A stretch of 64,000 bases of DNA, taken from positions 1 to 64,000 of the forward strand of contig ADNK01002524.1 in the NCBI GenBank assembly GCA_000320545.1. Reading direction: 5' to 3'. Positions 1 through 49,449 of this stretch are shown in pieces (positions within the stretch are counted from its first letter, which is position 1; every line of letters begins with the position of its first letter). The translations under genes and the position numbers were made by a program. Under the pieces are notes generated by a model that saw only the letters and a list, made by a program, of their open reading frames with translations, was not told the origin of the DNA and did no database searches. This stretch comes from Bigelowiella natans CCMP2755. Lineage: Eukaryota; Protista; Cercozoa.

Positions 1-146
1 ATCTACCTACCTAACCCTAACCCTAACCCTAACCCTAACCCTAACCCTAACCCTAACCCTAACCCTAACCCTAACCCTAACCCTAACCCTAACCCTAACC
101 CTAACCCTAACCCTAACCCTAACCCTAACCCTAACCCTAACCCTAA
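1..146. repeat. Telomeric (CCCTAA)n array, left chromosome end
   Basis: Uninterrupted CCCTAA hexamers from about position 9 to 146 at the very start of the window; reads TTAGGG on the minus strand. Confidence 0.97.
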
Positions 147-1589
147 GTGACAATGGTGATGACGATGATTCACAACAGACATGGCAATGCCATGCACACC
201 ATGCATGTGCAACATTGCGTTGTCTGCAATGAGCATTCCTTCACAGTGACACCATGCACACTGCACGTGCATGACATTGCGTTGTCTGGAACGTTCAGGT
301 TGTGAAGAGCAAGAGCAAAGGGTTCACTGGCACCATGCAGCACAAGACGAGGAGAAGGGCCTTGCAGATGGCTCTGACCACTGCGAAGAGGAAGAGGGAT
401 CGAGCTGAGCGCATGAAGATGGACAGTCTCAAGCACGAAACGGAAGCTAGCAGATTTCTTCTCCTTCTTCGTGATGGTCTCACGCACAGGCTGTTGGTGG
501 ATTCTGAAGGTGAAAACGTGTGTGACGATGGTCTTGAAGATCTCAGTGCCAAGCAGGCGTTGCGTGTGCAATTGCAAGCAACCGCAATTTGTCATCATCA
601 CGTTCACATGGGCAACGAATTGGAATCAGGACGAAGACCCGCGCAAGCGGACGCTTGCGCTGCTGCGGGAGAACGGTGCGTTCCGAAGGCAGTTGAACGC
701 ATCGCAACGTGAGTGATGCACGTCACTCATGCATCGTGTGGAAGTGTGTGTGTGTGTGTGCTTCATTGCCATGCTCACCACACACTTCGCACTGCTGGAC
801 TGGTGTGCATGCACCAGCAATTGTCACGTCGATGCAATGATCACTGGTGTGCATGAACCAGTTGTTCGTGTGATGTGGCTGGCGTGCGATGCGGTGATGG
901 TGTGCGTTGTTCGTTTCTCATTGCGTGTGTGTGCTGTGCGTCACACATTGCTCAGGTTGCAGCCAGCACAGTTGTGGATTGGCTGAGAGATCACGTGAAC
1001 AAGCACGATGGGGCCGGTTTCAGTTTCGATCATCGCGGGCTGTGGAAACGCAGCTGGTTGCTGAACGAAGAGGACGTGCTGCTCAAGTTCAAAACCTTTT
1101 GCAAGACGAACATGGCAAAGTTGTCTGTCAGTCTAGCCACTGTGTTTGTGAACGAAACGTTGCTTGCCGACGTCACCACACAGCAGCTGAGAAGAGCAAA
1201 GCTGCAGTTTCCCGTCAGCCGAGCAACAGTTCACTCTTGGATGAGGCGCTGCGCCATCATTCACAAGCATCGACACAAAGCTGACTGCTGCACAGACGTG
1301 CACGAGCGACCGGACGTTGTGATTTGCAGAGCACAACACGTGCGAAACGTGATGAAGTGTGAATTGCGACAACACACGTGGTTGCAAGTGACGCAGAGCG
1401 AGAGCGAAGAGCATCGCAAAAAGCATCCTGAAATGTCTGAAGGCCACAAATGCATTGATGGAGATGGTGTCAACATGGTCGAGCACCACGTCGACGATTG
1501 CGAAGATTTCACACGTCCACGATCGAAGATCCAACACGGTGGATGCCTCTCTGTCAGGATGCCTGAGAGGGCAGCACCTCTGGACCACT

Positions 1590-1866
1590 TGTGAAACTGT
1601 GCCCAGCGACCAGTTGAGTCGCGGTGGAGGGTGCGTTGGGTTGGCACTAGCAGAGGGCGCAAAGGTTGCGCGGGAAAGGGTTTCGCTGTTTCGGCCATTG
1701 CGCAGTTGTGGACTGCGCGGCGCACTTTCATTGCGTGTTCTGTGGAGCGTTCTGAGAATGCTCCGACCCAAGTTGGCACTCATCACTTTTCAACAGGACA
1801 AACAAGCTTGCTGCTGGCTCATTGCTGCAGGCTGCTGCGCACCTGTCGGGTCTTGACAGGAACAGA
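1590..1866 (+). repeat. 5' LTR of Copia element
   Basis: Starts TGTGAAAC; direct repeat of 6475-6751. Confidence 0.95.
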
Positions 1867-1877
1867 GGTCATGAGCC
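1867..1877 (+). promoter_or_regulatory. Primer-binding site, copia-type half-tRNA-iMet (GGTCATGAGCC, probably from GGTTATGAGCC)
   Basis: Immediately follows the 5' LTR. Resembles the GGTTATG(G/A)GCC PBS of Drosophila copia-like elements, with TA changed to CA. Confidence 0.6.
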
Positions 1878-4800
1878 TCACTGGCGGAAAAGGGATGTTC
1901 GCAGTCGCCAAGAACCTCAAGTTGAGGGCGGACGACTTCGAAGGCCACATTGAAGAGATCGACGACTACTTTGCCATCATGGACTTGATGGACATGTTTG
2001 CGTTGCCTGGTTTGATCGGGAAGAAAGAGAAAATTCTGGTGACCGTGAAGGAGGAAGACAAAGCAAAAAAAGAAAAAGGAATTGTCAAGGTGGACGCCAA
2101 AGTGGATGTAGGAACAGCCAAAGAGGCGAAGTTCGATGATGAAGTTTGTCTGCACCAAGTCTTTGCTGTTTTTGGAGGCACTTTGGAGGAGGAATGCATG
2201 TCACCTTCTCAGGCTTTGCAAACGCCCGACTGGTCATTTCGGGAGTTTGCAAAGACTCTTCCAAAGGACTCCAGGAAGAAAAGGAGAAAAGGATTTGCTG
2301 CACTCAGTCTCACTCTGGAAGACTGCAAACACCCAAAACAAAACACTGATGGAGATCCCGCTGAACTTTGGTGCAACACACTCCTGGAGTTCGAGGGACC
2401 GAGCTTCATGAGACATGTCGCTGTTCTGAAGAGCACAGTCAGTCTCACTTTGGACAATTGTGGTGGGGATTTTGCCAAGTGCGTCGGGACATTGACGAAG
2501 CACTTTGGCAAATTGGAAAGTTTGGGATCGAAGCATTCGGATCAAGAGCGAGTTGGCTTTTCACTTCTTGGATTGCCTGAGGCGGAATTTGACTCAGTTG
2601 CTGCAGTCATCGAAAACCTCAGTGCAATGAAGTTTCAGGATGTTGTCACAAGAACATCAGCTCATTTGAGAAGGAAGCAAGGTGATGAGGGAAACATGCT
2701 TGGGAACATCGGGAACAACAGTGAGAGCAACCAGCCCACTGGTTGGAACAACAGCAATGGGGGACGCTCGGCCTTCCGTGGAGTTTGCTTCTGGTGTGGC
2801 AAACAGGGCCACTCTGAGCGGTTCTGCAAATCTCGCATCGCAGGAAAACCTGAAACGCACACTGGGGGTCGAAAATCTGAGGAAAAATTGGGGAGCATTG
2901 AGCAGGAAGGAAGGGGTTTGGACTTGGGTTCGATCACTCCATTCTTCAACACATGCAACTCAATTTTTCTGCCGAAGGGGTGCTCAATGTTGGATGGGGG
3001 GTGCGGTGGGCACATCGTGAATGGCCCAGATTGGTTCGTGTCTCATGCACCTGGTGCGAACGAACCTCGCATCGTTTTGGCCGATCACAAGACTTCTTTT
3101 CGACCCCGTGGATCTGGCACTGTTTCAGTGCAATCATCGACTGGAAAAATCATGCATCTGAGCAACGTGGCGCACGTTCCGGAGCTGAAAGGGTGTCACA
3201 TCGCTCAACGACGTCTGCGCGTAGATGATGTGAAATGTCAGATCAGGCATGAGAACAAGGGGGAGGCAATCGACTTCCACATCGACAACGAAATTGTCGG
3301 ATCGACGGAGATTGGTCAGGAATGTGATTTGCATTGTTTCAAGGGTGCTCCTGCCAGGAAGGGAACTGCGCCAAACGCGCTGCATGGACACAAGTTTGGG
3401 GACACTGGTGTGCGCAAATGGCATTTGTCTTCATGTCATGCGCCTGCTGAAACCATTCGTCGATTGCAAAAGTGTTCCAAGGGCCTCAAGGTGAATGGCA
3501 AGGCAACTGCTTCGAAGACGGGCGACAAGGGTTCGGGTGCGGGCGACCAGGGTTTGGGCACTGATTCGAACAAATCAGACATCATGGACACTGAGGAAGT
3601 GTGCGAGCGCTGCGAGACTAGTTTTCAACGTGAGAAGACATTTCACCGCAAACCTGACCACTCAGCGAAGAAGTTCCTACCGGGTCAGGTGGCCAGGGGT
3701 GACCTCAAAGTGAAACCATCACGGTCTCGCAAGGGATTCATTCACCATCTTCTGTTGGTGGATGAGGGTTCGAGAGTTCTACACGGTCGTCCTCTGCGCA
3801 CTGAAAACGTTTTTCGTGAGTGTGTGGAATGTGTTCGATGGATCGAGCGCATGTCTGGGCGACAACTCAAGTGCTTCTGCGCTGATGGGGGTGGTGAATT
3901 TGTTGATTCGAAAATTTCTTCGTGGAATGAGAAGAAGGGCATCGAAGAGAAGTTCTCTGCTGCCGAGTCGCAATCCACCAATGGGCAGACTGAAAACCGT
4001 GTTGGTTGGGTCACAAGGGCTGTGCTCAAGGTTTTGAATGCAGCGGAATTGCCTCACACCTGGTGGCCGGAAGCTCTGGAACACGTGTTGCATGCTCACA
4101 ATCGCATGCCACACAAGTTCCACAACTGGCGTGCTCCCATCGAAGCTCTCACTGGACATCCTCCTGATGCATCTCATTTGAAACCTTTTGGCTGCATCGG
4201 ATGGGTGCGAATCAAAGACAGTGAGCTCAGAAAAGGAACATTCATGGATCGGGCTGCACGTTGCCGCATGCTTGGACATGACACTGCTCATGGTGTGCAC
4301 AAGGTGCTCACAGACGCAGGGAAGATTGTGCGTTCTGAGCATGTCAGACTGTTGGATGCTGAGTTCAAGTTCCCTGACAAGGATCCCAGTGTGCTCACTC
4401 GCGCTGAGTCACCAGATCTTGTTTTCGATGCTGAGGGCTCTGTCAGCGCTGAGGAGTGTGCAGATGTGCCTTCACTCGAGCCCCTCGCCGCCGACTTCCC
4501 GGACTCAGATTCTGATTCGGGTTCAGTGTCTGGTGCCGACAACGACGACGATGCTGTCCAGGACTGTCGCAAGCATGATGCGTGTGGGGAGGATGGCTTC
4601 GTCCCAGGTTCGGCGACTGATCCACAGACCACTTCCAGCGACGACTCGAAGCAGGGGGAGAGGCCGCGACGTGAGCGGAAGGCACGCTTCCAATTCGTCC
4701 CTGGAACCGGAAAAGGCGAGCATGATGGACTTCAGCACATCCATTCGTCTGCACTCAAGAAGATCTCGGATTCAGAGGATCATTCTGGCAAAATCTCGAC

Positions 4801-6367
4801 TCCACATGCTCTTGGATCTGTGGAACCCTGTGAACCCAAGTCCTGCGAAGAAGCCATTCAGACTCCGGGTTGGAACAAGAGTGTGGATGAGGAGCTAGCT
4901 GCTTCAGAACGCAATGGCACTTGGGAAGTGGTTGGAATCGAGAAAGCAGGACGCAATGAGCTCGTCACTCACATCTGGGTGCACAAGGAGAAGACAGACA
5001 AGACTGGCAAAGTGAACAGGTCAAAGAGCAGGCTTTGTGCTCGGGGATTCACACAGACTGGTGCAACCTTCAGTGACAAGTTTGCTCCTGCAGTTCGAAT
5101 GGAAACCATGCGTGCAGTCATCGCCTGTGCTGTCAAGCATGGACTCAAAATCTGTCAGGCCGATGTGAACAACGCTTTCCTGCATGGAGTCCTCCAGGAA
5201 CCGGTGTGCATGGAGACACCCAAGCACATGAGAGACAAGTGCTCACATCGCAAGTGTGCACTTGAGCTCAAGAAGGGCATCTGTGGGCTCAAGGTTGGTG
5301 CCAAGGCATGGAACGAGGAGTTCAATCGTCACGTGTTGGATTTGGGATGCAAGCAACTGGAATCCGATCCCTGTGTGCACATCAAACGCGAACATGGCAA
5401 GATTTGCATCGCGTGTCTGCATGTTGACGACCTCATCTGTGCTTCCGACTCCGAAGATCTCAAGAATGAGTTGTTTGAGACAACACGTGAGCTCCATGGA
5501 CTCAAGGACACGTCACGACTTGATCACGTGTTGGGAATCGAGGTGACCACTGACTCAGGGGGAGTTCATTTGAATCAGCGAGCGCACATCGAAAAGAAGC
5601 TGAGGGAGTTTGGATTTCACGAATGCCGTGCAAGCAAGGTGCCAATGCTCGACTCTGGGAACATGACCCTAGATCCTGATGGAGAACTCTGCGACGAGAA
5701 GCTCTGTCGTGCTGAGATTGGTTCACTGGCCTGGACAGCCACTTGCACTCGACCTGACACCAGCTTTGCTCTCTCCAAACTCTCCAGATGTCTCAACTCT
5801 GCAAAGGTGTCCCACATGCAAGCTGCAGATCGTGTGTTCAAGCATCTTGCTGGCACCATGGGGCACAAACTGCGTCTCAAGTCTGACTCTGGTCCGTCGG
5901 AGCTTCGCGTGCACGTGGACGCTGATCACGCTGGTTGCAAGGATGCTCGACGTTCGACATCGGGATGCATCGTCGAACACAATGAGTCTGCCATCGTTTG
6001 GAAATCTGAAAGGCAATCTGGTGCTCCTGTCAAATCCACTGCTGAAGCGGAGCACATTGCAGCATCAGAATCTGTTTCCGACGCAAAATGGCCATCAACA
6101 CTCCTTCGTGAGCTTGGAGAAACTGTTTCTAGTCCCATTTTCGTCATGGAGGACAACAATGCATGCATCAAGATGGCTGAGAATCCAGTGGTGTCTCAAC
6201 GCTCCAAATCGATCGACATCAAGTTCCACATCATTCGCCACTTGGTCAAGGCAGGCGAGTTCAAAGTGGAGCGTGTTTCGACCGATGATCAGGTTGCAGA
6301 CGGGATGACCAAGTCTGTTGGGTCCGACAAGCTCGGGTTGGTGATTGCGAGGCATTTTGGAACGTGA
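1871..6367 (+). CDS. Copia gag-pol polyprotein (open frame but hypermutated, probably non-functional)
   Basis: CCHC knuckle CFWCGKQGHSERFC; protease MLDGGCGGH; integrase WH..CH..C..C, LVDE, ADGGGEF and NGQTENR; RT SRLCARGF, DVNNAFLHG and LHVDDL; RNase H DADHAG, EAEHIA, EDNNAC and QVADGMTK. Integrase precedes RT. Confidence 0.93.
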   Translation: MSLTGGKGMFAVAKNLKLRADDFEGHIEEIDDYFAIMDLMDMFALPGLIGKKEKILVTVKEEDKAKKEKGIVKVDAKVDVGTAKEAKFDDEVCLHQVFAVFGGTLEEECMSPSQALQTPDWSFREFAKTLPKDSRKKRRKGFAALSLTLEDCKHPKQNTDGDPAELWCNTLLEFEGPSFMRHVAVLKSTVSLTLDNCGGDFAKCVGTLTKHFGKLESLGSKHSDQERVGFSLLGLPEAEFDSVAAVIENLSAMKFQDVVTRTSAHLRRKQGDEGNMLGNIGNNSESNQPTGWNNSNGGRSAFRGVCFWCGKQGHSERFCKSRIAGKPETHTGGRKSEEKLGSIEQEGRGLDLGSITPFFNTCNSIFLPKGCSMLDGGCGGHIVNGPDWFVSHAPGANEPRIVLADHKTSFRPRGSGTVSVQSSTGKIMHLSNVAHVPELKGCHIAQRRLRVDDVKCQIRHENKGEAIDFHIDNEIVGSTEIGQECDLHCFKGAPARKGTAPNALHGHKFGDTGVRKWHLSSCHAPAETIRRLQKCSKGLKVNGKATASKTGDKGSGAGDQGLGTDSNKSDIMDTEEVCERCETSFQREKTFHRKPDHSAKKFLPGQVARGDLKVKPSRSRKGFIHHLLLVDEGSRVLHGRPLRTENVFRECVECVRWIERMSGRQLKCFCADGGGEFVDSKISSWNEKKGIEEKFSAAESQSTNGQTENRVGWVTRAVLKVLNAAELPHTWWPEALEHVLHAHNRMPHKFHNWRAPIEALTGHPPDASHLKPFGCIGWVRIKDSELRKGTFMDRAARCRMLGHDTAHGVHKVLTDAGKIVRSEHVRLLDAEFKFPDKDPSVLTRAESPDLVFDAEGSVSAEECADVPSLEPLAADFPDSDSDSGSVSGADNDDDAVQDCRKHDACGEDGFVPGSATDPQTTSSDDSKQGERPRRERKARFQFVPGTGKGEHDGLQHIHSSALKKISDSEDHSGKISTPHALGSVEPCEPKSCEEAIQTPGWNKSVDEELAASERNGTWEVVGIEKAGRNELVTHIWVHKEKTDKTGKVNRSKSRLCARGFTQTGATFSDKFAPAVRMETMRAVIACAVKHGLKICQADVNNAFLHGVLQEPVCMETPKHMRDKCSHRKCALELKKGICGLKVGAKAWNEEFNRHVLDLGCKQLESDPCVHIKREHGKICIACLHVDDLICASDSEDLKNELFETTRELHGLKDTSRLDHVLGIEVTTDSGGVHLNQRAHIEKKLREFGFHECRASKVPMLDSGNMTLDPDGELCDEKLCRAEIGSLAWTATCTRPDTSFALSKLSRCLNSAKVSHMQAADRVFKHLAGTMGHKLRLKSDSGPSELRVHVDADHAGCKDARRSTSGCIVEHNESAIVWKSERQSGAPVKSTAEAEHIAASESVSDAKWPSTLLRELGETVSSPIFVMEDNNACIKMAENPVVSQRSKSIDIKFHIIRHLVKAGEFKVERVSTDDQVADGMTKSVGSDKLGLVIARHFGT

Positions 6368-6465
6368 ATTGAGTGACTGGAGGATGCAGGCTGCCGTGGG
6401 GTGGGGAACCTCCAACATTCAAGTTGTCTAGTCATGCGACGTTGCAACGTCAAGGTTTGCACGTC

Positions 6466-6474
6466 GAGGGGGAG
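6466..6474 (+). promoter_or_regulatory. Polypurine tract
   Basis: GAGGGGGAG immediately precedes the 3' LTR. Confidence 0.8.
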
Positions 6475-6751
6475 TGTGAAACTGTGCCCAGCGACCAGTT
6501 GAGTCGCGGTGGAGGGTGCGTTGGGTTGGCACTAGCAGAGGGCGCAAAGGTTGCGCGGGAAAGGGTTTCGCTGTTTCGGCCATTGCGCAGTTGTGGACTG
6601 CGCGGCGCACTTTCATTGCACGTTCTGTGGAGCGTTCTGAGAATGCTCCGACCCAAGTTGGCACTCATCACTTTTCAACAGGACAAACAAGCTTGCTGCT
6701 GGCTCATTGCTGCAGGCTGCTGCGCACCTGTCGGGTCTTGACAGGAACAGA
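6475..6751 (+). repeat. 3' LTR of Copia element
   Basis: Direct repeat of 1590-1866, followed by the CCACT TSD. Confidence 0.95.
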
Positions 6752-7789
6752 CCACTGGGGCCAAGATGAATCTGTGCACAAGGTTTGCAGTGAGAAGAGT
6801 TGTCACTGGATGGTGAATGGCGTGGTTGGGTCAAGAAAAAAACACGATGGCCCAGGGTTGATGGTTGGCGCGTTTCAAAATGAAAAAAGAGGTTTTGGGT
6901 TGCCTTTGTCTGCAGAAGATCTGAAGGCAGCAAACGATGTGCGCGCTGAAAAGAAACCTGATGCTCCCACTTTGAAGTGCACCCCAGGTCTGACACTTTT
7001 GAAACGTGGCAAAAATGAAGATGGCCATTGGAACTGCGACGTGTTCAAGTCTCAAGTGATTGATTTTTTGGACGCATTTGAACACCTTCATCCGGAGTGG
7101 AAATTGCTGTTGGAGATTGATTGGAGCACAGGCCACGGGTGTCATGAAAAAGATGCATTGTCAGCGAAGAATGTGAACGTGAATTGTGGTGGAAAACAAA
7201 GCACACCTAGAGACACAACTTTGACTCAGGGATGTTTGGGCGCTGGTGCAATTTGCAGTGCAGGGGAGGTCCAGAGTTTCGTTTTCGGCAAAAACGACAA
7301 CCCCCCATTCTGTGACATCTTTGCGCCTGAAGATGATGTTCACATGTGTGATGAGAATGGAGCCATCATGCAGCATCAAGATGGAAAGAAAAAGGGTCAA
7401 CCTGTGTTGGTGAAGGAAGGCCATGTCGGCAAACCTGAGGGTGTCAAGCAAGTGCTACATGAAAGAGGACTGTGGCAAGATGGAATGACTGCAGAAGGAA
7501 AGTCTAGCAAGTGGGAAGGCGCAGATGAAAAAAAGAGTGCTGGGCTCACCTCATCCAAGTGTCCTGATTTTGAAGCGGAAAAACCTGAGTCAGCGAAGAC
7601 ATCACAGACACGCGGTCACATTCTCGTCATGTCGCCTAAAGGTGAATCGAACCCATGCGTGCACACACACACACACACACACACTCTCTCTCTCTCTCTC
7701 TCTCTCTCTCACGCACACATGCACATGGATGTGGACACAGAAATGGAAATGCACACGTGCATGCATGCATGCACGTGTGTGCATGTGTG

Positions 7790-7828
<39 letters not shown>

Positions 7829-8203
7829 ATGTCACAACGCAGGTCATCCTCAGCTTGCCGGGGTTGGGATTGAGTGCAGCTGGGGGAAATCAAAGTGCGA
7901 ACGGCGCCGCACACCTGTTGAGCAGCGCACATCCAAGAATTTTGTGGCAGACCTACATGAATTATTGACGTCAGATGAAATGTTGAGCCTCCTGCGAGTG
8001 CGAAAGTTTGGAAGAAGAACAAGAGATCATCGTCGAGCACACTGGAACCTGGATGAGGCCAATCCTTTGCAACCGCAAGAGAAAAAGGACATCGAAAGAA
8101 TGAGGAAACTACAAAAGTCTCACCGTTGCATTCTGAATCAAGAGCATAAGTTCCTACAAAATGCACAACATGCGCGAATGTGACACCTGTAGTCGTGCAC
8201 CAC

Positions 8204-9348: not shown

Positions 9349-9654
9349 ATGACGATGATGGTGGTGGTAATGATCAGATGATGATGGCAGAGGCTAATTC
9401 GCCTCTGATGGTTGTGATGATGGTGGTGATGATGATGATGGTGGTGATGGTGATCATGGTGGTGGTGGTGATGATGATCAGATGATGAGGTTGATGATGA
9501 GGGCAGAGGCTAATTAGCCTCTGATGGTGGTGATAGTGGTGGCGGTGATGATGATGATGATGATGGTGATAGTTATCATGGTGGTGGTGGTGGTGGTGAT
9601 GGTGATGATGATGATAATGATGATGATGGTGATCATGATGGCGATGGTGCATAG
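9246..9654 (+). repeat. (GAT/GGT)n trinucleotide tract, probably inside a 5'-UTR intron of the ARL gene
   Basis: About 400 bp of GAT/GGT repeats, bounded by GT at 9246 and AG at 9653-9654, just before the ATG at 9656. Confidence 0.7.
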
Positions 9655-9655
9655 G

Positions 9656-9868
9656 ATGTCCCTTCTAGATAAACTGAAAAAGTTAAAGAAAGGTGATAAA
9701 GAGTACAAATGTATATGTCTCGGACTCGATGGCTCTGGCAAGACTACTTTTCTCAAACAGTAATATCTCTTGTGTTATTTTTTTGGAAAGAGAGAGAAAA
9801 GTGCATGCATTTACATATCAGCTTACATATATAGAATACATGGAATACATAGAATATGTATCACATTT

Positions 9869-9910
<42 letters not shown>

Positions 9911-11568: not shown

Positions 11569-12099
11569 GGAACGCCTTCTCATCATGTTGATTCAATTTC
11601 AAGCGCGGAGAAAGAAATGAAGTTCGGATGGGATTGACGACGTTGGTCGATGCCAGGGGACGGAACAAAGGGAAGAAAAGCCAGTACTTGGAGCCAGAAC
11701 TTACACATGCCTGATGAACATAATCAGCTGCATCATGGGCAGATCAGCAGGATCGTTTTATTTGTTTGGAAGATCGATCGAAATCACTAAATTCTCACCA
11801 CTCGTTTTACTAGTTCATTCAATCCACCAATTGTGTCTGCACATGCATGTTGTGATGAGCACGCTGATGCATGCGAAGCGTGCATGATGCAATGGCACTG
11901 TGTTGTGTGCAGCGTGTGTGTGGATGTACGATGGACGCTGAAGCTCCTCGCTCGCGCCGCGCGCAAAACGATGATTGCACAAAAGAAAGACGACTCCAAT
12001 TGTTGTCTCTCTCAGTCATGCCATGACGCCATCACGCGCGCGCGTCATCGATCATCATGTTGGCATCATGCAATGATGAGTGTTTCAGCAATGAATTGA

Positions 12100-13400
12100 A
12101 TCTTTCGCCTGGAGATTCTCATGTGCGATTCACACGCTACATGGGACTTCGAACCAGTCGCAATGAATCCCTGAGAAGCATTTTCCACGGTCCGATGCTC
12201 GCCGTGGTCTGATTTGGACTTCGTCTTGACTTCAGCGCAACAGCTGCAGATGGGTGCATTCTTGGTGCACACATGGTCTCCTGGCAGTCCATGGTGGTGA
12301 CCTTAGATGGCGGGGGTTCGGGAGTTGTTGGGCGAACAATTCTGCGTGCGAAGCCGCCGTCAATCCCCAATCAATGCCGCAGGTGCTCCCCCTGTCCTTG
12401 CCATCATCCTTCTCAGATCTTTGCTTCTTGTTCCTGTTGTTGGCGTTCTTGTGACAGTGGCAGCGTGTGTGTGACTCGCTGCCACATGGTCTGCATGGAG
12501 CTTTGCATTGTTGCTCGCCTCCCGCATGATTCTTCTTGCAATTGAGGCACTTGAATGAGCGTTCAGTGGCATGAGGATCATCAGAGCAGCTGGATCCATG
12601 CATGTGCTTCTTGTGATGACCTTTGTGCTTCTTTTCGTAGCTGCTGTGGCCCACGTTGGCTCCTGCAGGATTGGTCAGAGCACTGCAGTCGTCTCGGTTC
12701 TCAACCAGTTCTTGAACGAACCTCCTGCAGAGATGGGATCTTCTTCACAGAAGCGTCGAAGATCTGCTGCTTCAAAGACGCGCACTTCGCTAGTTCGGGT
12801 CCAATCCCTTCACGTGGAGCAGCATTGAGAGGATGGGATTGAGTTGTTGTTTCTGACTTTCGAAGTGGTGGATCAACTCATTGAACGCACAGGTGCAGTC
12901 CTTGCTGTTGCCGGTCTGTCGCAGAGAAAGCAAGCTTTCGAATTGCACCATCAAGTTGGCTTTCCCCCCTGCAAAGAACTTCTTGTGGAGGGTCTCGCAG
13001 GCCGCGACACCGTCGTTCTTTCGCACTCCTGCATTGTTGAGTGTCCGCTAGTCCGGTGGACCGAGTCGGAGATGTGCCCGAGAATGACATCCCAAATCAC
13101 TTCACTGGAGTTGTCGAAGAGAGCTTGAGTGTGCTGCTTTGCATGCATCTCATCTTGCTTCGCTTCGTTCTTGGAGCTGTCCTTCTGTGACCGCTGCATC
13201 GTTTTGGAGGCCACAGGGATTTCCAACAGTTTCGTGGTCGGCGACATGATGAGGGGTGGAGTGTCACCATGTCCGCCGCATCTGGTCATGGATCGCAGTG
13301 AAAACCAGCAAGTGGTCCAGAACGGTTCATCATCAGTCTGCAGTTGGGTCCTTTCTGTTTGATTTTGGACTCCAACCTCGCGCACCACACATTGTGAGAG
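12100..13400 (-). mobile_element. Degenerate LTR-retrotransposon gag remnant, hypermutated
   Basis: Frameshifted minus-strand pieces with gag-like helical segments (ETLHKKFFAGGKANLMVQFESLLSLRQ..KGLDPN) and tandem Zn knuckles (CLNCKKNH..C, CRPCGSESH..C). Confidence 0.6.
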
Positions 13401-14626
13401 GCCACAGCCTCCTTGGATCCATCAAAGATTCGCCGTGCTCGACCGTCGTCAAGATTGGAGCTCACAACCCGTGAGAACGCAAGTCAAATGCGCAAATTGG
13501 AGATCGATCAAAACCCTGTTGAACGAATCAGATTTTGGCTCAGATGCATGCTGCACATGGCTGCAATCGCTGCAATGAACTCCCCACTGACCTCTGTCGA
13601 GGGCCTGATGCTTGCTAGCTTGGGGTGATCGATCTGCGAATCTCGGGATCTGAGTCCGCAGATCTGCAGCAGTTTGGGGGAAATCCCCCCAACTCCCTCG
13701 CTGGTTGCGACAAGAGTCCTTGTCGCATTGATGCGAATGGCGTGAGCCCATTTCGCACATTCAAGACTCAACTCAACTGACTCCAGACTTCGTTCAACTT
13801 CGCACTTGCTTCTGTCGAAGTCATGCTCATGCATCCATGCATGGCAATGGTGTCAATCTCGTTGCAGTTGCATTGCGCAGCGCTAGCAACACAACCGAGC
13901 CAATGCAAGCTTCAACAAACATCAAGTCCACAAAACCAATGCCCTGTTGAATGCACGATGTGAGCTGGTCATGCATGAGCAAACTGCCAAAGGAGAAAGC
14001 TCACCGCTTGCTAGCTTGCTTGCGGGTCGTTCAGAGTGTGCCAAACTAGCCACTTGCGCGCCAATGCACATCATGCGCTGGACACACAGCATCCCCATCA
14101 GCAGCATGCTGCGCATCACAGTTGCCCAAAAATTCGGGAAAAATTTCAGCCATTTTTCCCCAAAACGTCACACCACGCAGGCCGACTCCTTGTCGCAAGT
14201 GAAACACCGAGGGTGCTCCTGGAAAACATCCACAGTTTGCCAACCGAGATGGATGTTTTCCCGCTGCACGTGCCCCCTCCCATGACCACGTTTCTGGGCA
14301 TGCAACGTGAGTTGCATGCCCCCATGTGACCAGCCAAGCTGCAGTGGGTGCAGCCTGAACCCATGTGAGCATGCCTGCATGAAAATGTGAGACATGACAA
14401 AGCACAACGTGCACCATCATTTGCACTCATGCATGCGCATGCGCACCTACGTGCACTTGGTGGTCGCAGACTGACCACACTCGTGTCACACGATGTCACG
14501 TGTGCACGAAGTGCGTGTTGGATGGTGTTGCATGTCTGCGCACCACTTTCCATGCAAAGTGAAAGCACTTGCTGCTGATTGGCGTGCGCGTGCAGAGAAC
14601 GCATCGTGTGCATGCATGATGATTCA

Positions 14627-15037
14627 CAAGTCCGTCAAACCCGGCAACGACGGGGTTGTGAACAGTGCAGCGCTTTGCGACGCGCTTTGAAGCAGCAGGC
14701 AGTTGCAGTTGGTCAAAGAAAAGTCATCAGAACTTGTCCGATGGCCAAACCTGAAAAAATGACCGAAGCGTTGACCAAAATGTCCATTTTCAAGGCCTCA
14801 AAAGGTGAAAATTCACACTGTCACACACCCGTTGTGCAGCGGATGCACGCTGCGCGTTTGTTCTCTGCCACACTTTGAATGCTTTTGCGTGTGCGTTTGA
14901 CCAAGTGTGATGTGCACGAAAATTTTCAAAGAAATGCGAGCAAATCCAATGTCCATTGCATCACATGACGCGCTTGGTCGCGCGCAAAAGCTTCCAAATG
15001 CACATTCTGGCGATTCGTTGCAGGTTTGACGGACTTG
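14627..15037. mobile_element. MITE copy A (Tc1/mariner-type)
   Basis: 15-bp TIRs CAAGTCCGTCAAACC...GGTTTGACGGACTTG, flanked by CA and TG (probable mutated TA TSD). Homologous to 49037-49448. Confidence 0.85.
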
Positions 15038-16844
15038 TGTTGGGTTCATGTTTTCACGGTCGAGAAAAGAACCCTGACCCCAAATTGGCATGGATCCTGG
15101 TCTGTGGTTTGGTGTTCGTTGGCAGACGTGCACAGCTCACGATCAGTTTTTTCGCTGATCTGGTCACAATGGGGGAAAGCGGCTGCAGGAAGCAGCACAG
15201 TGTTGATGTTCGTGTCAGTTCCCACGTCAAGAAGGGGGTGCGTTGGATCACTTTCACTTCAGCGCATTCTCGTGGGAACGCGGATGGTGTGCGAGCAACA
15301 CTGCATTGCTTGCCGCACAACGTTGCGTGCACGTGAGCAAAATTGCACGCAAGAGAAGACGTTTCACAGTCAGGCAAGACTTTTCCGTTCAGTTGCGCGA
15401 AGACACGGCTGGGTGGTGCAATGGGAGCGAATTTGCACGTGCGACGTCAGGTGATTTGAGTCTTTTGAGGTGAATTGGCAGTCGACCCGTTGAGGGGCGA
15501 AGCCCCTCCCAACTGACCAACCTGAGCATTGTTCGTGTGACAAGTTCCAGAGTTCCAGAGTTGTTTGTTCAGCATTGCGAATCACTGTGAATCCCACGCA
15601 ATGGTCATTGTGAACACACTCGAGCATGTTTTGACCGTTGAAAGTGTTCAGTTTTTGCTGCATCGGCTGAAGTGATGTTGAAACGACACCTCAGAATCCA
15701 GATCACAGCACCTGGCTCGTGCGCAGACCACTGACTGCAACCACCACAAAAAACAGTCCAGGTGCAGTGGTGTGGATTCTGAGATGTCACTTTGGCATCA
15801 CTTCAGCCGATCCAGCGATGTGGCAAAAACTCCAGGTGGAACTGAACACTTTCAACTGGTCAAAACACACCTCAGTGCGTTCACAATGATCGCTGCCAAG
15901 CGCTCGCGCGAAAAAAACACGAGACATGGCTCACACTTGCGTTTTGCGACAACGTGCGGTTCAGGCTGCTTGTCGCCACCAGGTTCATCTTTGGGTGTTG
16001 AAACTTTGGCTGTCCATCGACTGGGACGTGATCAACACGATGTGCGAACTGAGTGTGTGCAACGTTTCAGTTTGTCTGACTTGCATTGCACCGAAGTTTC
16101 CAGAAAATTCTGAAAACCCCCCATTTCAAACCATCAAAAATCGCACAAGTGTGGACTTTGGTGGAGTTTTGGACCACGTCGTGTCATCGAACCGATTGCA
16201 ATCTTGTGGCATGGTGGCCAGGTGTGCGCACGATGCAAGCAAAAAGTGCAGCAAATTGCGGCGGCGTCCATCTCAACCATGAAAATTCCCGGGTTTCGCC
16301 TGGTTGTGTGAAAATTTGCCCACGGACGACCTGCTGCTGGACTGAATTGCCAGAATGAAACGATGAAAATCCAAGCTAGCTAGGCACATCACGTGTCTTT
16401 TGTGAAAACAATCATTGTCAAAAGTGACACAGTGGCAAAAATCCACAGCAGAGCATGGCGCCATCGTGTCGCATTGCAGTCACAGAACGCCGTCCACAAT
16501 CACTAGAATCAAACTTTGTGAAAGATTTTTCGAAATTCTTCATCAGCACATTCCATTGGAATTCCAGCTGCCATGATTTCTTTCCTTCGGTACAAGTCCA
16601 TGATGATCTTGTGGTCATGGGCATGCTCCTTTAGCAAATCCTTTTTCTTTGAAAGTTTCTTACCTACAAAGAGAACAATTCTTCAGTTGCTAGAACACCG
16701 CACACAATGAAGGTTGCTACCCTTGTTGCCACGGAGCATCCATCGCATTTCCAACGCCGCATCCACTTCATCCTTTGTCAGTGAGGTCACATCAAGCCCT
16801 TTCTTGGCAAGTTTTGTGGAGTCCTTTTCCGGCTTCTCCCATCG

Positions 16845-19601: not shown

Positions 19602-20887
19602 AAACAAACACAGAAACAGAGAGAATTCTCATGAAACGCAGTAGTAGTGTAGATCTTTTTCTAAGAACAAAATTGCCCTACTCACTTTTCCAGTCGTTTC
19701 CTCATAATTCAAAAACAAGATGTATATCGATGATGATATCAAAGACTAGTACGGATCAACTTTATATATTTTTATACATTTCCATATATATATATATATA
19801 TATTATATTCAAAACAAGATTCAAAACAGTTGACCGGAATCGAGCCAGCTGTGTTGTTTGATTCAGTTTTTTCACCTTGCTCCGCATCATCCACCTCCTA
19901 TTAACACCATTTTCAAGGGGAGGAAAAAGTTAAGTACACTGCAACCCTCCCTTCATTTTTTTATTCGCCAGCAAACCGTAGCAATGCATGATGTACACAT
20001 TACTTCCTTACTCAGCCTTAAAAATCTTACAGAATATCTTGTACCATTGATCCTTCGCCACTATCAACTGCTGGTTTACGCTCATTCTAATCCAGAAATA
20101 AAAATGGATTACATCAATGAATTAGTATCATAATAGCAGCATCCTTGTAACTCTGGCACATTTTGTCAGTAGCACCATCGTATCAACTACAGCAACACCA
20201 TAGCTTTTCAGAACATGATGCGTTATCTCTTCATTGTACATCGTCCTTATCTTGCGTAGCTGCCTCTCTTGCATGCTCGTCCATTTCCTGTGATCCAGAG
20301 GTGAAATACGGATTTCATCCATCTCAAAGTGGCTCTCCAAATGATTAATACTCATTAGCATCATTAGCATAAGAACAGAAACGAAGGAACAGTCGAATGT
20401 TTTCATTTTCTCGTCATCTCCTCATTGTGGAAGCCGATGAGGGCCTGTGCTTCACCAGTCTAGACCCCACCACTAACACCTCTCACCAATGACCTGTGTG
20501 GCTTCGTGCAATCTTGATCTCTTTGTTCTCCCTGTGTATTCCTCCTTTGTGTGCTTCGATCTTTTCATCTTGAGCAGCACGAAAGCAAGGGAAGCAAAGC
20601 ATGCAACAAGAATGAATGTGGGTGATGAGTTTTGAGTGCACCAACCCGCACAAGAAGAATCGCAGGATGTTTTTGTTCTGCGACAACAGAATCAACGACA
20701 TTGTTGTTGTTGTTGTTGTTGTCATTGTTGTTGTTGTCAGGAGTTGATTATGATGGGCCAACAAGTCATCATCACCACCAACCACCTGCCACTACGACGG
20801 AGGAGGAGGAGGAGGAGGAGGAGCATAATCATTAGCGAATAGTAGTAGCGTGAGTGTCACGACAGAGATTGCGCTGCTGCCTGCAAG

Positions 20888-28010: not shown

Positions 28011-29299
28011 TAAAACTCACACCTAAATAGCAATCAAATGGTGGCCATCACTTCAACCTCACTTTTTAGACAAGATGTGACATCCACGATGTTCTTGTTC
28101 GTTTGAATTGCATTACAAAAGATCTGCACTGGTCAAATGCAGGGTCAGCAGAACTCATCGAGAGTAACTTTGCGCCGCGCATCATCAAACGCCAACACAT
28201 TAACAGCTAAAAACGCTTGGTGGATTTGGTCCTAATCTAGCAATGTGTACATCAGCAGCATGCAGGTGATTGGGCGTTCACCATGTGGCAGCGAGTGCGC
28301 ATCTTCACGTGCTAGCGCAGATGGCATGCAGCATGGCTTTGCCTACGCTAGTACGTACTAGCTAGCGTAGTGCTGCGATTCAATGTTAGGACACGCCATG
28401 CTTGCTAGCCTAATTGCACTAGCCGCTGCACACGCTGTAGCACGGCAGCACGCATGCGCAGCTCGGGAATGACAGCATGCAATCACGCGTGCATGCTGCA
28501 GGTCTCTAGGCCTTCTTGAGCCATTGCAGTACGCCATCGTAGTCGCGCATCTCGATCTCTAGCTTTGCGGACAATGCAGATCAACCCATTGTCAAAGCAA
28601 CTGTGCATGCCAATGGCTGCTCATTTCCCTTCGCTTACAATGCACTAGCGAAAAAACAGATCAAGCACTAATTGGTCCATGGTGATGATGCACGCAACAA
28701 AGTGTTTGCTAGTTTGGTCACAATGATCGACAGCACATGCATGCATGCGGCGATGCAGCAAGTTGCACGCAAGCGCGTGAAGACAAAAGCTGAGCAGCGC
28801 AGCAAATGCATCATCGAACGTGACGACAAATGTTAGCGCTGGCAACAAATGACAAAGACACGTGCACACCGAATGCAACAGTTGCCGCAACACACAACTG
28901 TGTGTGTTCCATTTGAATGAATGGTTTGTTGCTGCAACGAATGGTTTTCACTGCATTGCTTGTGCCACTCGTTCGCGAACGGTTTCGAACATGCATTCAT
29001 TTGGTGTTTTTCATCGAACACGTTTGCTAACAGCAAACACCACCGCTTGTAGATCATGCCCCACATGCATTTTCCCTGCTGTCCGCAGTGGTAAAAACTG
29101 CCAAAATGCGCAACATGAAAATTTACACACTGACGACCTACTGCTGAACTAAACATTGCTAGAGCGACATGATGAAAATCCTAGGCACATCACATGTCTT
29201 TTGTGAAAACAATCTTTGTTGAAAATGACACAGCAAAAAGCAAAAATCCACAGCAGAGCATCGCGCCATTGCCTGCATCGCGCCATGGCCTGTGTCGCA

Positions 29300-30300
29300 C
29301 AAAATTTCGCCGCTATTAGCCGGTCGTGAATTTGCTTTTCCTTTTCTGTGCGTCCTCAATTATTTCTGTCATGTTGATGCCAACAACCCAGAACTCTGCT
29401 AGCTTGAGAGCCTCTTCTTCAAAGTCCATTGCAAACGAAATGCTGAAGGATTCTGCTATCGACTGGGGGACAAGGAAAAACACCGGAGCTTTCTCCGTTT
29501 TTGATGTACCGAATGAAATCAGCGCCGTCCGAGAAAGTTTTCAAAGTGAATGAGCAGGGAACTCCTGAATCTTTTCTTTCCAATCACACAAACCATTCTC
29601 ATTCTTTTTTTCAGCGTCAGCCAGCTGCTTAGGGAGACGTCTGGCTGAAAGCTTGCAATCCTTGCAAATTTTAGCAAAGAACTATTTCTCGCCATCTAAT
29701 CTGATGAAATTTTTGAAATACTTCTCTGCATGCACTTGGAAGATCTTGCTTTCAATTAATCCATTCGCTTTGTGGAACTATGACGCATTTCTCACTGCAA
29801 AGAAGTGTTTCATAAGTAGTGGAAGATTGGACCGAAAATGTTCTGCTTGAAACTTTCGAATCCCCGGAGTGCATGTGTTCCTTAGTCGTTGTTCCTGCTC
29901 AAGCACCATCCTTGCAACCTTTGAAAAGTTCGTATCTGTCCTCTCTGATGAAATCCCGCAGCTGTCCGCCAGTTCTCTGAAATCTCTCTAAAAATGCACT
30001 CTCTTTCTCTTTTAGCTCGGTCGCTATTTTTGGAAAAACACGTGTGACGATCTTTGAAGCAAGCAGTGTCTCATGCGAATGATTCATCGCCATGACATTC
30101 GGATCCAACGGCCAAAAATGCAGCATTCGTGGTTGCGAATCTCGATCTCTGCGGAGCGCGTCGACCCGTTGCCAAAGCAACTGCACACGTGCTAATGGCT
30201 TTCTCATTTCCCTTTGCTCGTTCAATCAGAGGCGAGAGCAATTTCATGCATGCCATGGCGCACTTCACTTTTTTGCATGCGCGCCACATTTTTTAAAGAG
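29300..30300 (-). pseudogene. Decayed, partly hypermutated paralog of the CRN-like gene
   Basis: WPLDPNVMAMN and ERFQRTGGQLR resemble WPIERNVMATN and ERYEKVGGAPR; VFFLVPQS resembles VYLVPNK. Its 3' flank (29110-29270) matches 16300-16475. Confidence 0.55.
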
Positions 30301-35100: not shown

Positions 35101-36971
35101 TGTGTAGCATATGTGCTCATGGGTGACGAAGTGACGATGATCATGATTACTTACCGAGCTAGCATAAAAAGCGCGTAATGATTCCAGATTGATTGATCTT
35201 GAAAGTTGTGCACTGTGTAGACGGAAGAGCATGCAATGAACACTCAACAACAGAAAAAATGAAGAGCATGGCAACATGATGTTGCAAATGCAAGAATTTT
35301 CAATGAACGATTGCAAATCTCTGGATACTCCCCACTCCCCACAAAAACACGATAAAAACAAATGGTCATGGACTCTACCTGTCCGATCGACCATCCCGCG
35401 CATGACCCTGTTTGAATTCCCTCTGTTCACCATCAATGCGCTCGCTTCGTTGGATCATCTCTGTTCGGTTGCTTGTCTTTTTTGCGACTCGAGTCTCCGG
35501 AAATCTCCAGATGATTTTTCCAGCTTAGTGCTGCTGCCGGTGATCCTTTCGGCTGCGGGATTGGAATGCTTTTCTCATTTCTCGTTTCTCGTTTTCATTT
35601 GCTCATTCATTCATGGAAACTGAATTGCTGTCTCTTTCACACTTTGTTTCGCTTTGGAGGTGATCTTCCAGGCATGCAGCAGGATGGATGGAGTTGCTTT
35701 TTCTTTGCGTCAACTGCCGCACTCTGTCCGACGACCCTTTTTCCTTTTTTGGAACCCGAAACAGAGCCAAGCTGGCACAACGTTGGGTGGCTGAACGCAC
35801 GGAGCATGAACATTGCGTGTGAGAGCAGGAGACCTCACTGTCCTGTTCGCAGCCGTTCCAGCGTTCCTCGCGGTCACCTCCAGGACTGGAGGATTGAGGG
35901 ATCGAACTCTTTGCCTCTCTGGCTCTGCTTGCACGCAGAGGGCACACACACGCAGACGCTTGAGAACAACTGCAATCGTGCTCTGTCTGCTTGGTTTTCA
36001 TGTGATTCGACACGTTTGCGAAGGGCGCGTCCACTTGTTGCAGCAGCCCAGGCCAGCAGGCATGGCGATGCGCACGCACAAGCAAGCATCTAGCATGGCG
36101 TTGTTTCCAGAGCGGACAAAACAATTGAGTTTGAACTTTTGGAAAACTCGAGCTGGCCAGCTAGCGAGCATGCTGACTCACACTTGTGCACCACCACAAG
36201 ACGAGCATGCCAACAAGTGAGTGCGCGTGCACGCTGCCATCTAGCCATCGGAAGCATCTCCTTCTTCACCTCCCGCATCAAGAAACCAATTTCACATTCC
36301 AGCATTCATGACAGTTGAGCACAATTCTGGATTTGCACAAATTGGTGAAGTGGTGTTGCCAGCGTCGAGCAATGCCACTACATCAACCGCAGCCACAACT
36401 AGACAAGGCTAGGCAGCTTGAGAATTTTCATGGCGAACAAATTTGCACGATTTTCCTCCAACCTCTTTTCTGTTGCTAGATTGTTGTGAAACGCATGTGC
36501 CATTGCGAGTGCCTTGCACACATCTAGGCATGCTCATCAGAGCGAAGTGAAATTACAAACGTGCAAGGAATCATGAGACACAACTTCAGACTTGCTACGA
36601 AGCTAATTCAAAAAGATGCAAATTCACGCAAGCCAAATGACAGGAGGCAGTTCATTTTCACAACAACTGTGAATGGACTGGAGACTCATCATGTGTTTTT
36701 CTTTTCTTCATTCCCAGCTTTGAGCAACTGAAAAGCAATTTTTAACACTTCTTTGCCCATTGGTTTAAGACTTCCCGGATCTCTGGAAAAATCTGCTGAT
36801 TTTTTGTAAAACTTCAGTGCTGCAGGATTTTCAGAACTTTTTAAAAGCCAAGAATCGATGTATGGATCCAATTCAATGCACCTGTAGAACAACATGATGT
36901 TGGAAGTGACATCTTTGGTTGCAAATTAGAGTTCTAGATTCTAGATGGACACAACATGGTGGACAAGGGTG

Positions 36972-47465: not shown

Positions 47466-49036
47466 TATCTTTTTAGAAGATGACTATGACGATGATGACG
47501 GATTCCTCATCTCCCTGATGCAATAAATAAATTCTGCAACAACAAAAAGCACTAAATGAAAATCCCTTACAGTCTTTAGTATAAACGTAGAGGGATTTCA
47601 CACTGCTGTTTCTGCTGCTGAACACATATCTACCTTTGCATTATGCTATATTCTGCTTTAAAAGAGTGATGATGGTTTTCTGTATAAATCTTTGGATTAA
47701 ACATATGTCGTCCTCTAAATCTCACTTCTTATTTTGTAACGACATGAATACATACACATAAGTATGATTTCAATTTTTGTTATTTCAGTAGTAGATAAAT
47801 GCACTCCTTTCCAATGAGAGTAATAACATGTTGAGCAGCCAATGCTTCAGCAAGAGAGTAGGGGATTGACGCAAAATAATACGTGTTTTCATCCCTCTTT
47901 TAGAGCAGATGCTCTTCTGTCTACGGCATCATGTTTCCGGGCAGTCATCATATCTAATAATGTTTCACGAGCAGTAATTGCATCACAACTGTCACATTTG
48001 AATTTTTTCAGTATTGTTATTTCATACAACTACACACATGGTGATGGTGGTCGTCGGTACATGACGATTCATTTAATCATGACCATAGCTTGATGCACAA
48101 GTGTGCACTGCAATGCATGCATGTGCGTTGGGCAACATGATTGTGCCAATGATCTAGCAATGATTGCGGTGCTACGATGACAAGCTAGCAAGGCGCTTGC
48201 ATTCAGGTCAAAAGCTGCGCGAAACTAGGGCTCTGAAAATTATCTGCTTGCTTGCCAGTTGTGTTGATCGCGCGATCGCCAAATCACTCGATCATCGTGA
48301 TGCGAACGTGCAACGCAAGCTAGCAATGATGTGCTAGCATGACTGCATCAAATGTGCAACGAATGGCATGAGCTTTTGATCAAGAGTCATTGAGTACATG
48401 TTTGCGCGTTCGATTCATGTGCGCCCAGCTAGCCAGGTGCATGCTTTTTGCGTGCGTGTGCTGAAACTTCGCATGTCCACAAAGCTAGTACGTGTGCACA
48501 CACCCTCATGAGCTTGCAAAACTTGTGGCACGCAAATGCAAATGCGCTAGCGTGTTCAAAAGTGGCAAGAATTTTTCAATTTTCGCCCGCTGGCAGGCGT
48601 TGAAAAATGAGGTTTTCAAGCTGAAATTCGAAAAAGAAATCAAATTTGAACCTCAAACAGGCTCCAGTGTGCTTCCAATGTCCAATTCCAGAATTGCAAC
48701 GATTGAGCGCGCTAGGCCGCACGCGCAAAGCACAGTTTGTTCAAAACCCACTCGTCACCGGGATTGACACAGTTGTGAGCTGGTCAGCATGTCCAGATCT
48801 GTGACTGGCGGGAGATGGCTTGTCAGGCTGGCATGGACAGCATCACCTGTCTAGCTGTCTGGCTGTGTGTCGTGGACAAACGTGATGCAATCTGGCACGT
48901 CAGCGAACCTGCTGCGCAGTGACAATGCCGCCATGCACACGATGTCATGACTCCACCTGCACGTCTGTCGATGTCGATCGTGTCGTGTGTGTGATGATGT
49001 GCAAGTGACGATGATGGAATCATTGTGCTTGTGACA

Positions 49037-49448
49037 CAGCTCCGTCAAACCCGGTGACGACGAGGTTGTGAACAGTGCAGCGCTTTGCGACGCGCTTTGA
49101 ATCAGCAGGCAGTTGCAGTTGGTCAAAGAAAAGTCATCAGAACTTGTCCGATGGCCAAACCTCAAAAAATGACCGAAGTGTTGACCCAAGTGTCCATTTT
49201 CAAGGCCTCAGTGAGCGCGCAAAGTGTGAAAATTCACACCCGTTGTGCAGAGGATGCACGCTGCGCGTTTGTTCTCTGCCACGTTTTGAATGCTTTTGCG
49301 CGTGTGTTTGACCAAGTGTGACATGCACGAAAAAATTCAAAGAAATGCGAGCAAGTCCAATGTCCATTGCATCACACAACGCGCTTGGTCGCGCGCAAAA
49401 GCTTCCAAGTGCACGTTCTGGCGATTCGTTGCAGGTTTGACGGAGCTG
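49037..49448. mobile_element. MITE copy B (Tc1/mariner-type)
   Basis: TIRs CAGCTCCGTCAAACC...GGTTTGACGGAGCTG, flanked by CA and TG. Homologous to 14627-15037. Confidence 0.85.
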
Positions 49449-49449
49449 T

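What the first reader, a model, noticed from the sequence alone, without database searches (positions are those of the whole stretch)
147..8100. Candidate RIP-like genome defence: two-strand A-to-G hypermutation of TpA in repeats ('inverse RIP')
Seen: across about 7.8 kb of transposon DNA I count by eye only about 18 TpA dinucleotides, where base composition predicts several hundred. Neighbouring host genes have normal TpA and intact (TA)n tracts. The 1578-aa Copia ORF contains one tyrosine. Positions conserved as Tyr in Copia proteins read His (TAY->CAY: YVDD->HVDD, YVDADYAG->HVDADHAG, EAEY->EAEH, WVY->WVH) or Cys (TAY->TGY: LYGLK->ICGLK, STSGY->STSGC, EPKSY->EPKSC). Adenine has therefore become G on both strands. 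Established: fungal RIP does the opposite (C->T, mainly CpA->TpA, RID-dependent). Inference: a repeat- or heterochromatin-targeted DNA adenine deamination or modification pathway saturates TpA sites, for example a TadA/ADAT-like DNA deaminase or deamination of a modified adenine. It affects a retroelement, a DNA transposon, its intron and MITEs, on both strands, so it acts on genomic DNA rather than on a retroviral RNA intermediate. I know of no described eukaryotic system with this spectrum.
Basis: partly seen in the sequence, partly recalled or inferred. Interest (0 to 1): 0.97.

Follow-up and report, generated by a model that had tools for sequence, protein, structure and literature searches.

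The report
TA-erasing hypermutation of algal transposons
At this chromosome end of the marine alga Bigelowiella natans, jumping genes have lost about 96% of their TA steps, rewritten to TG or CA on both strands; this matches a hypermutation already reported for this species in a 2026 preprint and is likely a genome defence, and the added detail here is that CTAG sites are largely spared.

Summary
Bases 147-8100 hold 20 TpA against 455 expected. The Copia ORF keeps none of 49 tyrosines aligned to its closest full-length relative; 17 read His and 10 read Cys. It is not new. A host ATPase exon matches Bigelowiella natans at 356 of 358 residues. A bioRxiv preprint (10.64898/2026.01.13.699255) reports the same TpA->TpG/CpA spectrum in that species, arising de novo in mutation-accumulation lines, with transposon domains enriched among low-TpA genes and an ADAT2 candidate. 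Added here and absent from the preprint's main text: near-saturation in eight sharp blocks; CTAG spared (31 of 57 surviving sites, about 69% survival against 0-7% elsewhere); and LTRs identical at 275 of 277 bases with no TG/CA discordance, which suggests the element was copied after its TAs were erased. The enzyme is unidentified. I could not check reads or the whole genome.

The parts
1..146 (.). telomeric (CCCTAA)n tract, TpA intact, directly beside the depleted block
   Evidence: sequence; 25 TA in 2-144
148..8101 (.). TpA-depleted block 1 (the finding): 20 TA against 456 expected, 11 of the 20 in CTAG
857..1589 (+). 5' part of an ORF interrupted by the Copia insertion, probably a DDE-type transposase; 0 Tyr in 244 aa
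   Evidence: no Pfam hit; identity inferred from the downstream part
1585..1589 (+). target-site duplication CCACT, left copy
1590..1866 (+). 5' LTR, 277 bp, one TA (in CTAG)
1871..6367 (+). Ty1/copia gag-pol ORF, 1498 aa, 1 Tyr, no stop or frameshift
   Evidence: Pfam RVT_2 E 6.9e-37, SH3_retrovirus, Pol_BBD, weak Retrotran_gag_2
6466..6474 (+). purine tract before the 3' LTR
   Evidence: sequence
6475..6751 (+). 3' LTR, 275 of 277 identical to the 5' LTR; the only difference is GT/AC at 1735-1736
6752..6756 (+). target-site duplication CCACT, right copy
6757..7641 (+). middle exon of the probable DDE-type transposase, 0 Tyr in 294 aa
   Evidence: Atlas lead DDE_3 on 18% of members at 0.92
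7642..7842 (+). predicted GT-AG intron, 201 bp, with CA/TG-rich microsatellite and no TA
   Evidence: splicing inferred
7843..8183 (+). last exon of the probable transposase, running past the block edge
   Evidence: weak Atlas lead
11814..16660 (.). TpA-depleted block 2 (16 TA against 286), with a Cys/His-knuckle-like ORF at 12232-12744 (-) and a copy of the 417-bp element at 14625-15039
   Evidence: no Pfam hit
20481..20748 (.). small TpA-depleted block (1 against 21)
28713..30293 (.). two small depleted blocks (28713-29025, 29820-30293) inside a partly depleted repeat-like region
35380..36373 (.). TpA-depleted block (4 against 56)
48553..52125 (.). TpA-depleted block holding the 417-bp element with 17-nt perfect inverted ends (49035-49450) and surviving (CTAG)n runs at 51528-51539 and 51830-51860
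53401..54555 (-). host P-type H+-ATPase exon, TpA normal; places the window in Bigelowiella natans
   Evidence: 99% to jgi Bigna1 142195; 356 of 358 identical

Best explanation
Transposon DNA in this Bigelowiella natans window has had almost every TpA rewritten to TpG or CpA on both strands, likely by the host's targeted hypermutation already reported for this species, and likely through a DNA adenine deaminase. Shown here: loss of TpA, gain of CA/TG, Tyr->His/Cys and Leu/Val/Ile->Ser/Pro/Ala/Thr damage, confinement to blocks with graded edges, and sparing of CTAG. Shown in the preprint: the same change arises de novo in living lines about 1000 times faster than background. Inferred: a regional mark, probably chromatin or small-RNA guided, recruits a TadA/ADAT-fold enzyme that turns A after T into inosine; replication fixes G; either strand can be hit, and once one is, the site is no longer TpA. 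Inferred: the CTAG palindrome is a poor substrate or is protected, and this Copia copy was made from an already erased parent, probably with enzymes from an intact helper.
For: 20 of 455 expected TA. 0 of 49 aligned Tyr kept, 27 read His or Cys, none Arg, as one hit per site predicts. Second-position T->C changes against close relatives: 16 of 22 in codons ending in A, against 91 of 342 in the ORF, p 4e-6; first-position A->G after T 28 of 51 against 226 of 556, p 0.036. The two 417-bp copies hold no TA and differ by TG/CA at 3 sites, the mark of separate resolution of one TA; a partly mutated copy at 29116-29269 still has TA where its relative at 16309-16464 has TG or CA. rho(TA) rises 0.46, 0.59, 0.64, 0.69, 0.84, 0.86 with distance from the big blocks. 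Species match. Preprint: 230 of 231 hypermutable-region changes were A->G or T->C, all on TpA; a subset of changes was Sanger-checked; 324 low-TpA CDS enriched for DDE endonuclease and reverse transcriptase.
Against: No enzyme was examined here (no genome held); the preprint's ADAT2 candidate is untested and ADAT2 is a universal tRNA enzyme. Sequence cannot tell A-side from T-side chemistry. No TA-bearing copy of this Copia family was found, so ancestral states rest on relatives at about 53% identity. The blocks are 52% GC while converting host TA in silico gives only 46%, so starting composition differed or other changes occurred. Only block 1 has a firm transposon identity; 59 ORFs, most from the other blocks, gave no Pfam hit.
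Confidence: 0.7

Rival explanations
1. The same targeted hypermutation, but by T-side chemistry or error-prone synthesis: a modified thymine (5-hydroxymethyluracil-like) or a translesion polymerase puts G opposite T at TpA.
For: T->C and A->G are one event read from two strands; nothing separates them. From my own knowledge, polymerase eta favours A->G at WA and modified thymines mark repeats in dinoflagellates and kinetoplastids (recalled, no call).
Against: ApA is not depleted in the blocks (rho 1.19 against 1.01) and the preprint found changes only on TpA, stricter than the recalled WA spectrum of polymerase eta.
Confidence: 0.2
2. Element-intrinsic change: an active lineage evolved to be TpA- and Tyr-free, or its RNA was edited by an ADAR-like enzyme and reverse-transcribed.
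For: The ORF is unbroken and the LTRs are 275 of 277 identical with a perfect target-site duplication, so the element was copied when already TA-free.
Against: TA->TG/CA cannot create an in-frame stop, so an open frame is no sign of selection. Damage reaches the RT motif (YVDD->HVDD) and non-Tyr codons. Both strand outcomes occur, whereas editing one RNA strand gives only one. An intron and a non-coding element are hit as well.
Confidence: 0.06
3. Base-calling or assembly artefact of modified DNA.
For: I could not lay reads on this stretch, so it is not excluded directly.
Against: The preprint sees the same spectrum with Illumina and Sanger and in CDS of the 2012 reference. Related copies in the window resolve the same site differently, TG against CA. 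Telomere and host (TA)n tracts are intact.
Confidence: 0.02
4. For the CTAG detail only: CTAG is not spared but re-made from CCAG/CTGG by deamination of methylcytosine.
For: The next most common survivors (CTAA/TTAG, CTAC/GTAG; 19 of 57) also contain CTA/TAG, which CAG->TAG would create.
Against: CCAG is not depleted (Markov o/e 1.03 in blocks against 1.01 outside); CpG is not lower in blocks (0.83 against 0.74); ATAG/CTAT has only 1 survivor; the same CTAG stands in both LTRs and in both copies of the 16309/29116 pair.
Confidence: 0.15

Closest known systems
TpA-specific AT->GC hypermutation in Bigelowiella natans (Mettrop et al., bioRxiv 10.64898/2026.01.13.699255)
   Same: [quoted passage not shown]
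   Different: The preprint measures it in two integrated viral regions that still hold much TpA (rho 0.45 for the NCLDV region) and calls transposons a potential target. Here it is near saturation in a complete LTR element. CTAG, LTR, Copia and tyrosine do not occur in its main text; its supplements were not seen.
Fungal repeat-induced point mutation (RIP)
   Same: Dense, dinucleotide-specific transitions on both strands of mobile DNA, with leakage into flanks (RIP features recalled; the preprint draws the same comparison).
   Different: Opposite polarity (RIP is C->T and makes TpA and stop codons; this removes TpA and stops). RIP needs duplicated DNA; the preprint's main target is single-copy.
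ADAR / ADAT(TadA) adenosine deaminases and APOBEC3 retroelement editing
   Same: A->G read-out with a 5' U/T preference (stated for ADAR in the preprint); hypermutation as a defence.
   Different: ADAR edits RNA and APOBEC3 edits one cDNA strand at C. Here both DNA strands and non-retro elements are changed. ADAR's recalled favourite triplet UAG is not favoured here: TAG-containing sites survive best.

Membership tests
B. natans TpA hypermutation (Mettrop et al.) | occurs in Bigelowiella natans nuclear DNA | tested here: met
   ATPase exon 356 of 358 identical to Bigna1 142195; next best 82% Lotharella; one gene tested
B. natans TpA hypermutation (Mettrop et al.) | TpA->TpG and TpA->CpA on both strands | tested here: met
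B. natans TpA hypermutation (Mettrop et al.) | confined to foreign or mobile DNA in clusters, host genes spared | tested here: met
   block 1 is a Copia inside a probable transposase; host ORFs keep TA and Tyr; other blocks only partly identified
B. natans TpA hypermutation (Mettrop et al.) | ongoing, about 1000-fold raised rate, active in only some lines | not testable with these tools
   needs mutation-accumulation data; almost no target sites remain here
Fungal RIP | C->T transitions that raise TpA | tested here: not met
   rho(TA) 0.05, rho(CA/TG) 1.59
Fungal RIP | triggered by duplicated sequence | tested here: inconclusive
   some blocks hold repeats within the window; genome copy numbers unknown; preprint target single-copy
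Fungal RIP | RID/DIM-2 dependent, premeiotic | not testable with these tools
   no genome, no genetics; feature recalled
ADAR-type RNA hyper-editing fixed by reverse transcription | one-strand A->G limited to retro-transcribed RNA | tested here: not met
   17 His and 10 Cys outcomes; intron and non-coding element affected
Ty1/copia LTR retrotransposon | gag, protease, integrase, RT order in one ORF | tested here: met
   Pfam positions 225-365, 465-537, 853-925, 1108-1352; collinear with P0173
Ty1/copia LTR retrotransposon | two LTRs, 5-bp target-site duplication, purine tract | tested here: met
   LTR ends read TG...GA rather than the usual TG...CA
DDE (Tc1/IS630-like) transposase | profile match to a DDE family | tested here: inconclusive
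   no Pfam hit; Atlas DDE_3 leads at 0.92 and 0.90 on 18% of members; no terminal inverted repeats among the 5 longest of 59 pairs shown

The most novel reading that the evidence does not exclude
The B. natans mutator is a double-stranded-DNA adenine editor that reads four bases and skips the CTAG palindrome because that site carries a protective mark or bound protein. Fully erased, tyrosine-free elements still spread, so the defence disarms transposon proteins without stopping their DNA from moving. If the untested diatom leads hold, this is a widespread eukaryotic counterpart of RIP with its own enzyme.
Probability: 0.2. Interest if true: 0.75.

Novelty: already known. Interest (0 to 1): 0.4.

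Why it matters
The process is in a preprint only and its enzyme is unknown. This window adds direct evidence that transposons are targets and that the process can run to near completion. The CTAG exception is a fingerprint that any candidate enzyme must reproduce in vitro, which makes the open question (which protein, which base) easier to test. It also warns annotators: erased TA removes stop codons and tyrosines, so such repeats give long spurious ORFs and escape profile searches.

Tried and rejected
Whole-genome analysis was not possible: no genome is held. Reads were not examined. Search for TA-bearing or TA-free family copies: metagenome scan gave 2 distant loci at 32% with rho(TA) 0.74 and 0.71 (the scan covered 25 of 64 parts); viral contigs none; 0 of 214 related proteins were Tyr-poor, so no second lineage and no independent copy was found. 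Which flank protects CTAG: composition simulation slightly favoured a 3' G block (correlation 0.833 against 0.821 and 0.764), but Tyr sites preceded by C gave 3 Cys and 2 His (26 sites, p 0.34) and 3 Leu->Pro CCA changes exist, so a one-sided block is not supported. In-register CG in the intron microsatellite as double hits: rejected, as no Tyr->Arg occurs and such CG also occurs in a host tract near 9980. Transposase homologue search: none at E<=1e-8. Pfam on 59 further ORFs (58 of the 69 listed, plus the last transposase exon): no hits. Literature: ChlorV virus methylation motifs do not include CTAG (passages); PMC12695648 does not mention Bigelowiella (word search); PMC12730881 has no TpA or methylation text (passages); PMC7884421 uses ordinary RIP indices (passages); no paper held all of Bigelowiella, cytosine methylation, transposon, methyltransferase.
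Full report
Observation. Bases 147-8100 hold 20 TpA where composition predicts 455; 200 shuffles never fell below 412. The block starts right after a (CCCTAA)n telomere whose TAs are intact. A two-state HMM finds 8 such blocks in the window, about 18.4 kb in all, with 57 TA sites; rho(TA) is 0.05 and rho(CA/TG) 1.59 inside, 0.79 and 1.23 outside. All 10 (TA)5+ tracts lie outside the blocks.

Anatomy. The block is a nested pair. A complete Ty1/copia element (LTRs 1590-1866 and 6475-6751, target-site duplication CCACT, purine tract, 1498-aa ORF with gag, protease, SH3 and RT Pfam matches) sits inside an ORF that continues 6757-8183 across a predicted intron at 7642-7842. That outer ORF is probably a DDE-type transposase, on an Atlas lead only; Pfam and the homologue search found nothing. 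A 417-bp element with 17-nt perfect inverted ends at 49035-49450 has a 90% copy at 14625-15039; neither holds a TA.

Direction of change. The closest full-length relative, P0173, has 49 Tyr aligned to the ORF; none is kept, 17 read His and 10 Cys, none Arg. In the RT region, 0 of 16 Tyr shared by the two closest relatives are kept. All 214 relatives examined have at least 2.0% Tyr. Damage is not limited to Tyr: of 22 second-position T->C differences against close relatives, 16 are in codons ending in A, against 91 of 342 in the ORF (p 4e-6); first-position A->G after T is 28 of 51 against 226 of 556 (p 0.036). The two 417-bp copies differ by TG against CA at 3 sites, and a less mutated repeat at 29116-29269 keeps TA where its relative has TG or CA. 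So TpA became TpG or CpA, one hit per site, on either strand.

Organism and prior art. The host H+-ATPase exon at 53401-54555 is 356 of 358 identical to Bigelowiella natans Bigna1 142195. The first literature search returned bioRxiv 10.64898/2026.01.13.699255. I read parts 1-4 of 5 of its text (abstract to methods) and ran a word search; I did not see its supplements, which list the mutated sites. In 15 mutation-accumulation lines, 231 of 302 nuclear changes fell in two integrated viral regions; 230 of these were A->G or T->C, all on TpA. It also reports 324 low-TpA CDS enriched for DDE endonuclease and reverse transcriptase, 124 low-TpA clusters, and an untested ADAT2 candidate, and compares the process with RIP. 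The finding is therefore already known in kind and species. Searches found no other paper on it.

What the window adds. First, a context rule. Of 57 surviving TA sites 31 are CTAG, against 111 of 3385 outside (p 2e-29; p 1e-21 against block composition). Estimated survival is 0.69 for CTAG, 0.07 and 0.06 for CTAA/TTAG and CTAC/GTAG, 0.04 for GTAC and 0-0.02 for the rest; expected values come from host DNA, so they are approximate. (CTAG)n runs persist within or between blocks. I could not show that one flank alone protects: outcomes at CTA sites go both ways. Re-creation from CCAG is disfavoured. Second, edges are graded: rho(TA) climbs from 0.46 within 250 bp to 0.86 beyond 4 kb, and CTAG makes up 12 of 59 TAs in the nearest bin against 2-3% far away; this fits regional targeting with spread, though decayed element ends could give the same. 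Third, the LTRs match at 275 of 277 bases with no TG/CA discordance. If 9-12 TA sites had been resolved separately after insertion the chance is 0.002 or less (assuming even odds and that many sites). The LTR was thus probably TA-free when copied. As the coding region carries unselected damage, including HVDD for YVDD, copying of an erased parent by a helper's enzymes is the simplest reading; gene conversion between LTRs is an alternative. The words CTAG, LTR, Copia and tyrosine do not occur in the preprint's main text.

Mechanism. Shown: spectrum, both strands, block confinement, CTAG sparing. Shown by the preprint: de novo, fast, line-dependent. Inferred: a targeting mark recruits an adenine deaminase acting on DNA; inosine templates C; the site leaves the target class after one hit. 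I put the targeted host process at about 0.9 and deaminase chemistry at about 0.7; T-side chemistry or an error-prone polymerase is the main rival (0.2). An open reading frame is no sign of activity, since these changes cannot make a stop.

Limits. No genome was available and no reads were examined, so the artefact question is answered only indirectly. No second copy of the family was found. Species rests on one gene. Four earlier notes of this scan report the same signature in other genomes, three of them called diatom or diatom-like; I did not test them and use them only as leads.

Verdict. Real, correctly described, and a clear example of a process published as a preprint for this species. 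Novelty: already known. Interest 0.4, for the CTAG fingerprint and the sign of movement after erasure.

Noticed in passing
window 1735-1736 and 6620-6621: The only LTR difference is GT against AC at adjacent bases, explained equally by CpG decay of CGCG or by A->G and T->C in CATG; it is not a TA site.
   Followed up: partly
window 1867-1877: The sequence after the 5' LTR (GGTCATGAGCC) resembles a recalled copia-type primer-binding site with a TA->CA change; LTR ends read TG...GA.
   Followed up: no
window 14625-15039 and 49035-49450: Besides 3 TG/CA differences the two copies differ by several A/G changes in AAT or CAT context; AAT/ATT is also the least frequent non-TA triplet in blocks relative to host (0.48). 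Could be a weak second target or ordinary back mutation.
   Followed up: partly
window 28130-28712 and 48050-48552: Flanks with many TAs left, of which 11 of 27 and 8 of 15 are CTAG: CTAG-rich element ends or partly processed DNA.
   Followed up: partly
window 16845-18467 (-): Intronless 540-aa P-loop ORF (weak nSTAND3 match) right beside block 2 that keeps its TpA and 18 Tyr.
   Followed up: no
window 12232-12744 (-): Cys/His-knuckle-like ORF in block 2, perhaps the gag of another retroelement; no Pfam hit.
   Followed up: partly
window 9651-11550 (+): Intron-rich small GTPase (ARF-like, by eye) between blocks 1 and 2 with normal TpA.
   Followed up: no
window 36972-37943 (-): 323-aa coiled-coil ORF with intermediate depletion (rho TA 0.39, 4 Tyr) next to a depleted block.
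   Followed up: no
window 15598-15896: Nested long inverted repeats (59 nt and 39 nt arms) inside block 2.
   Followed up: no
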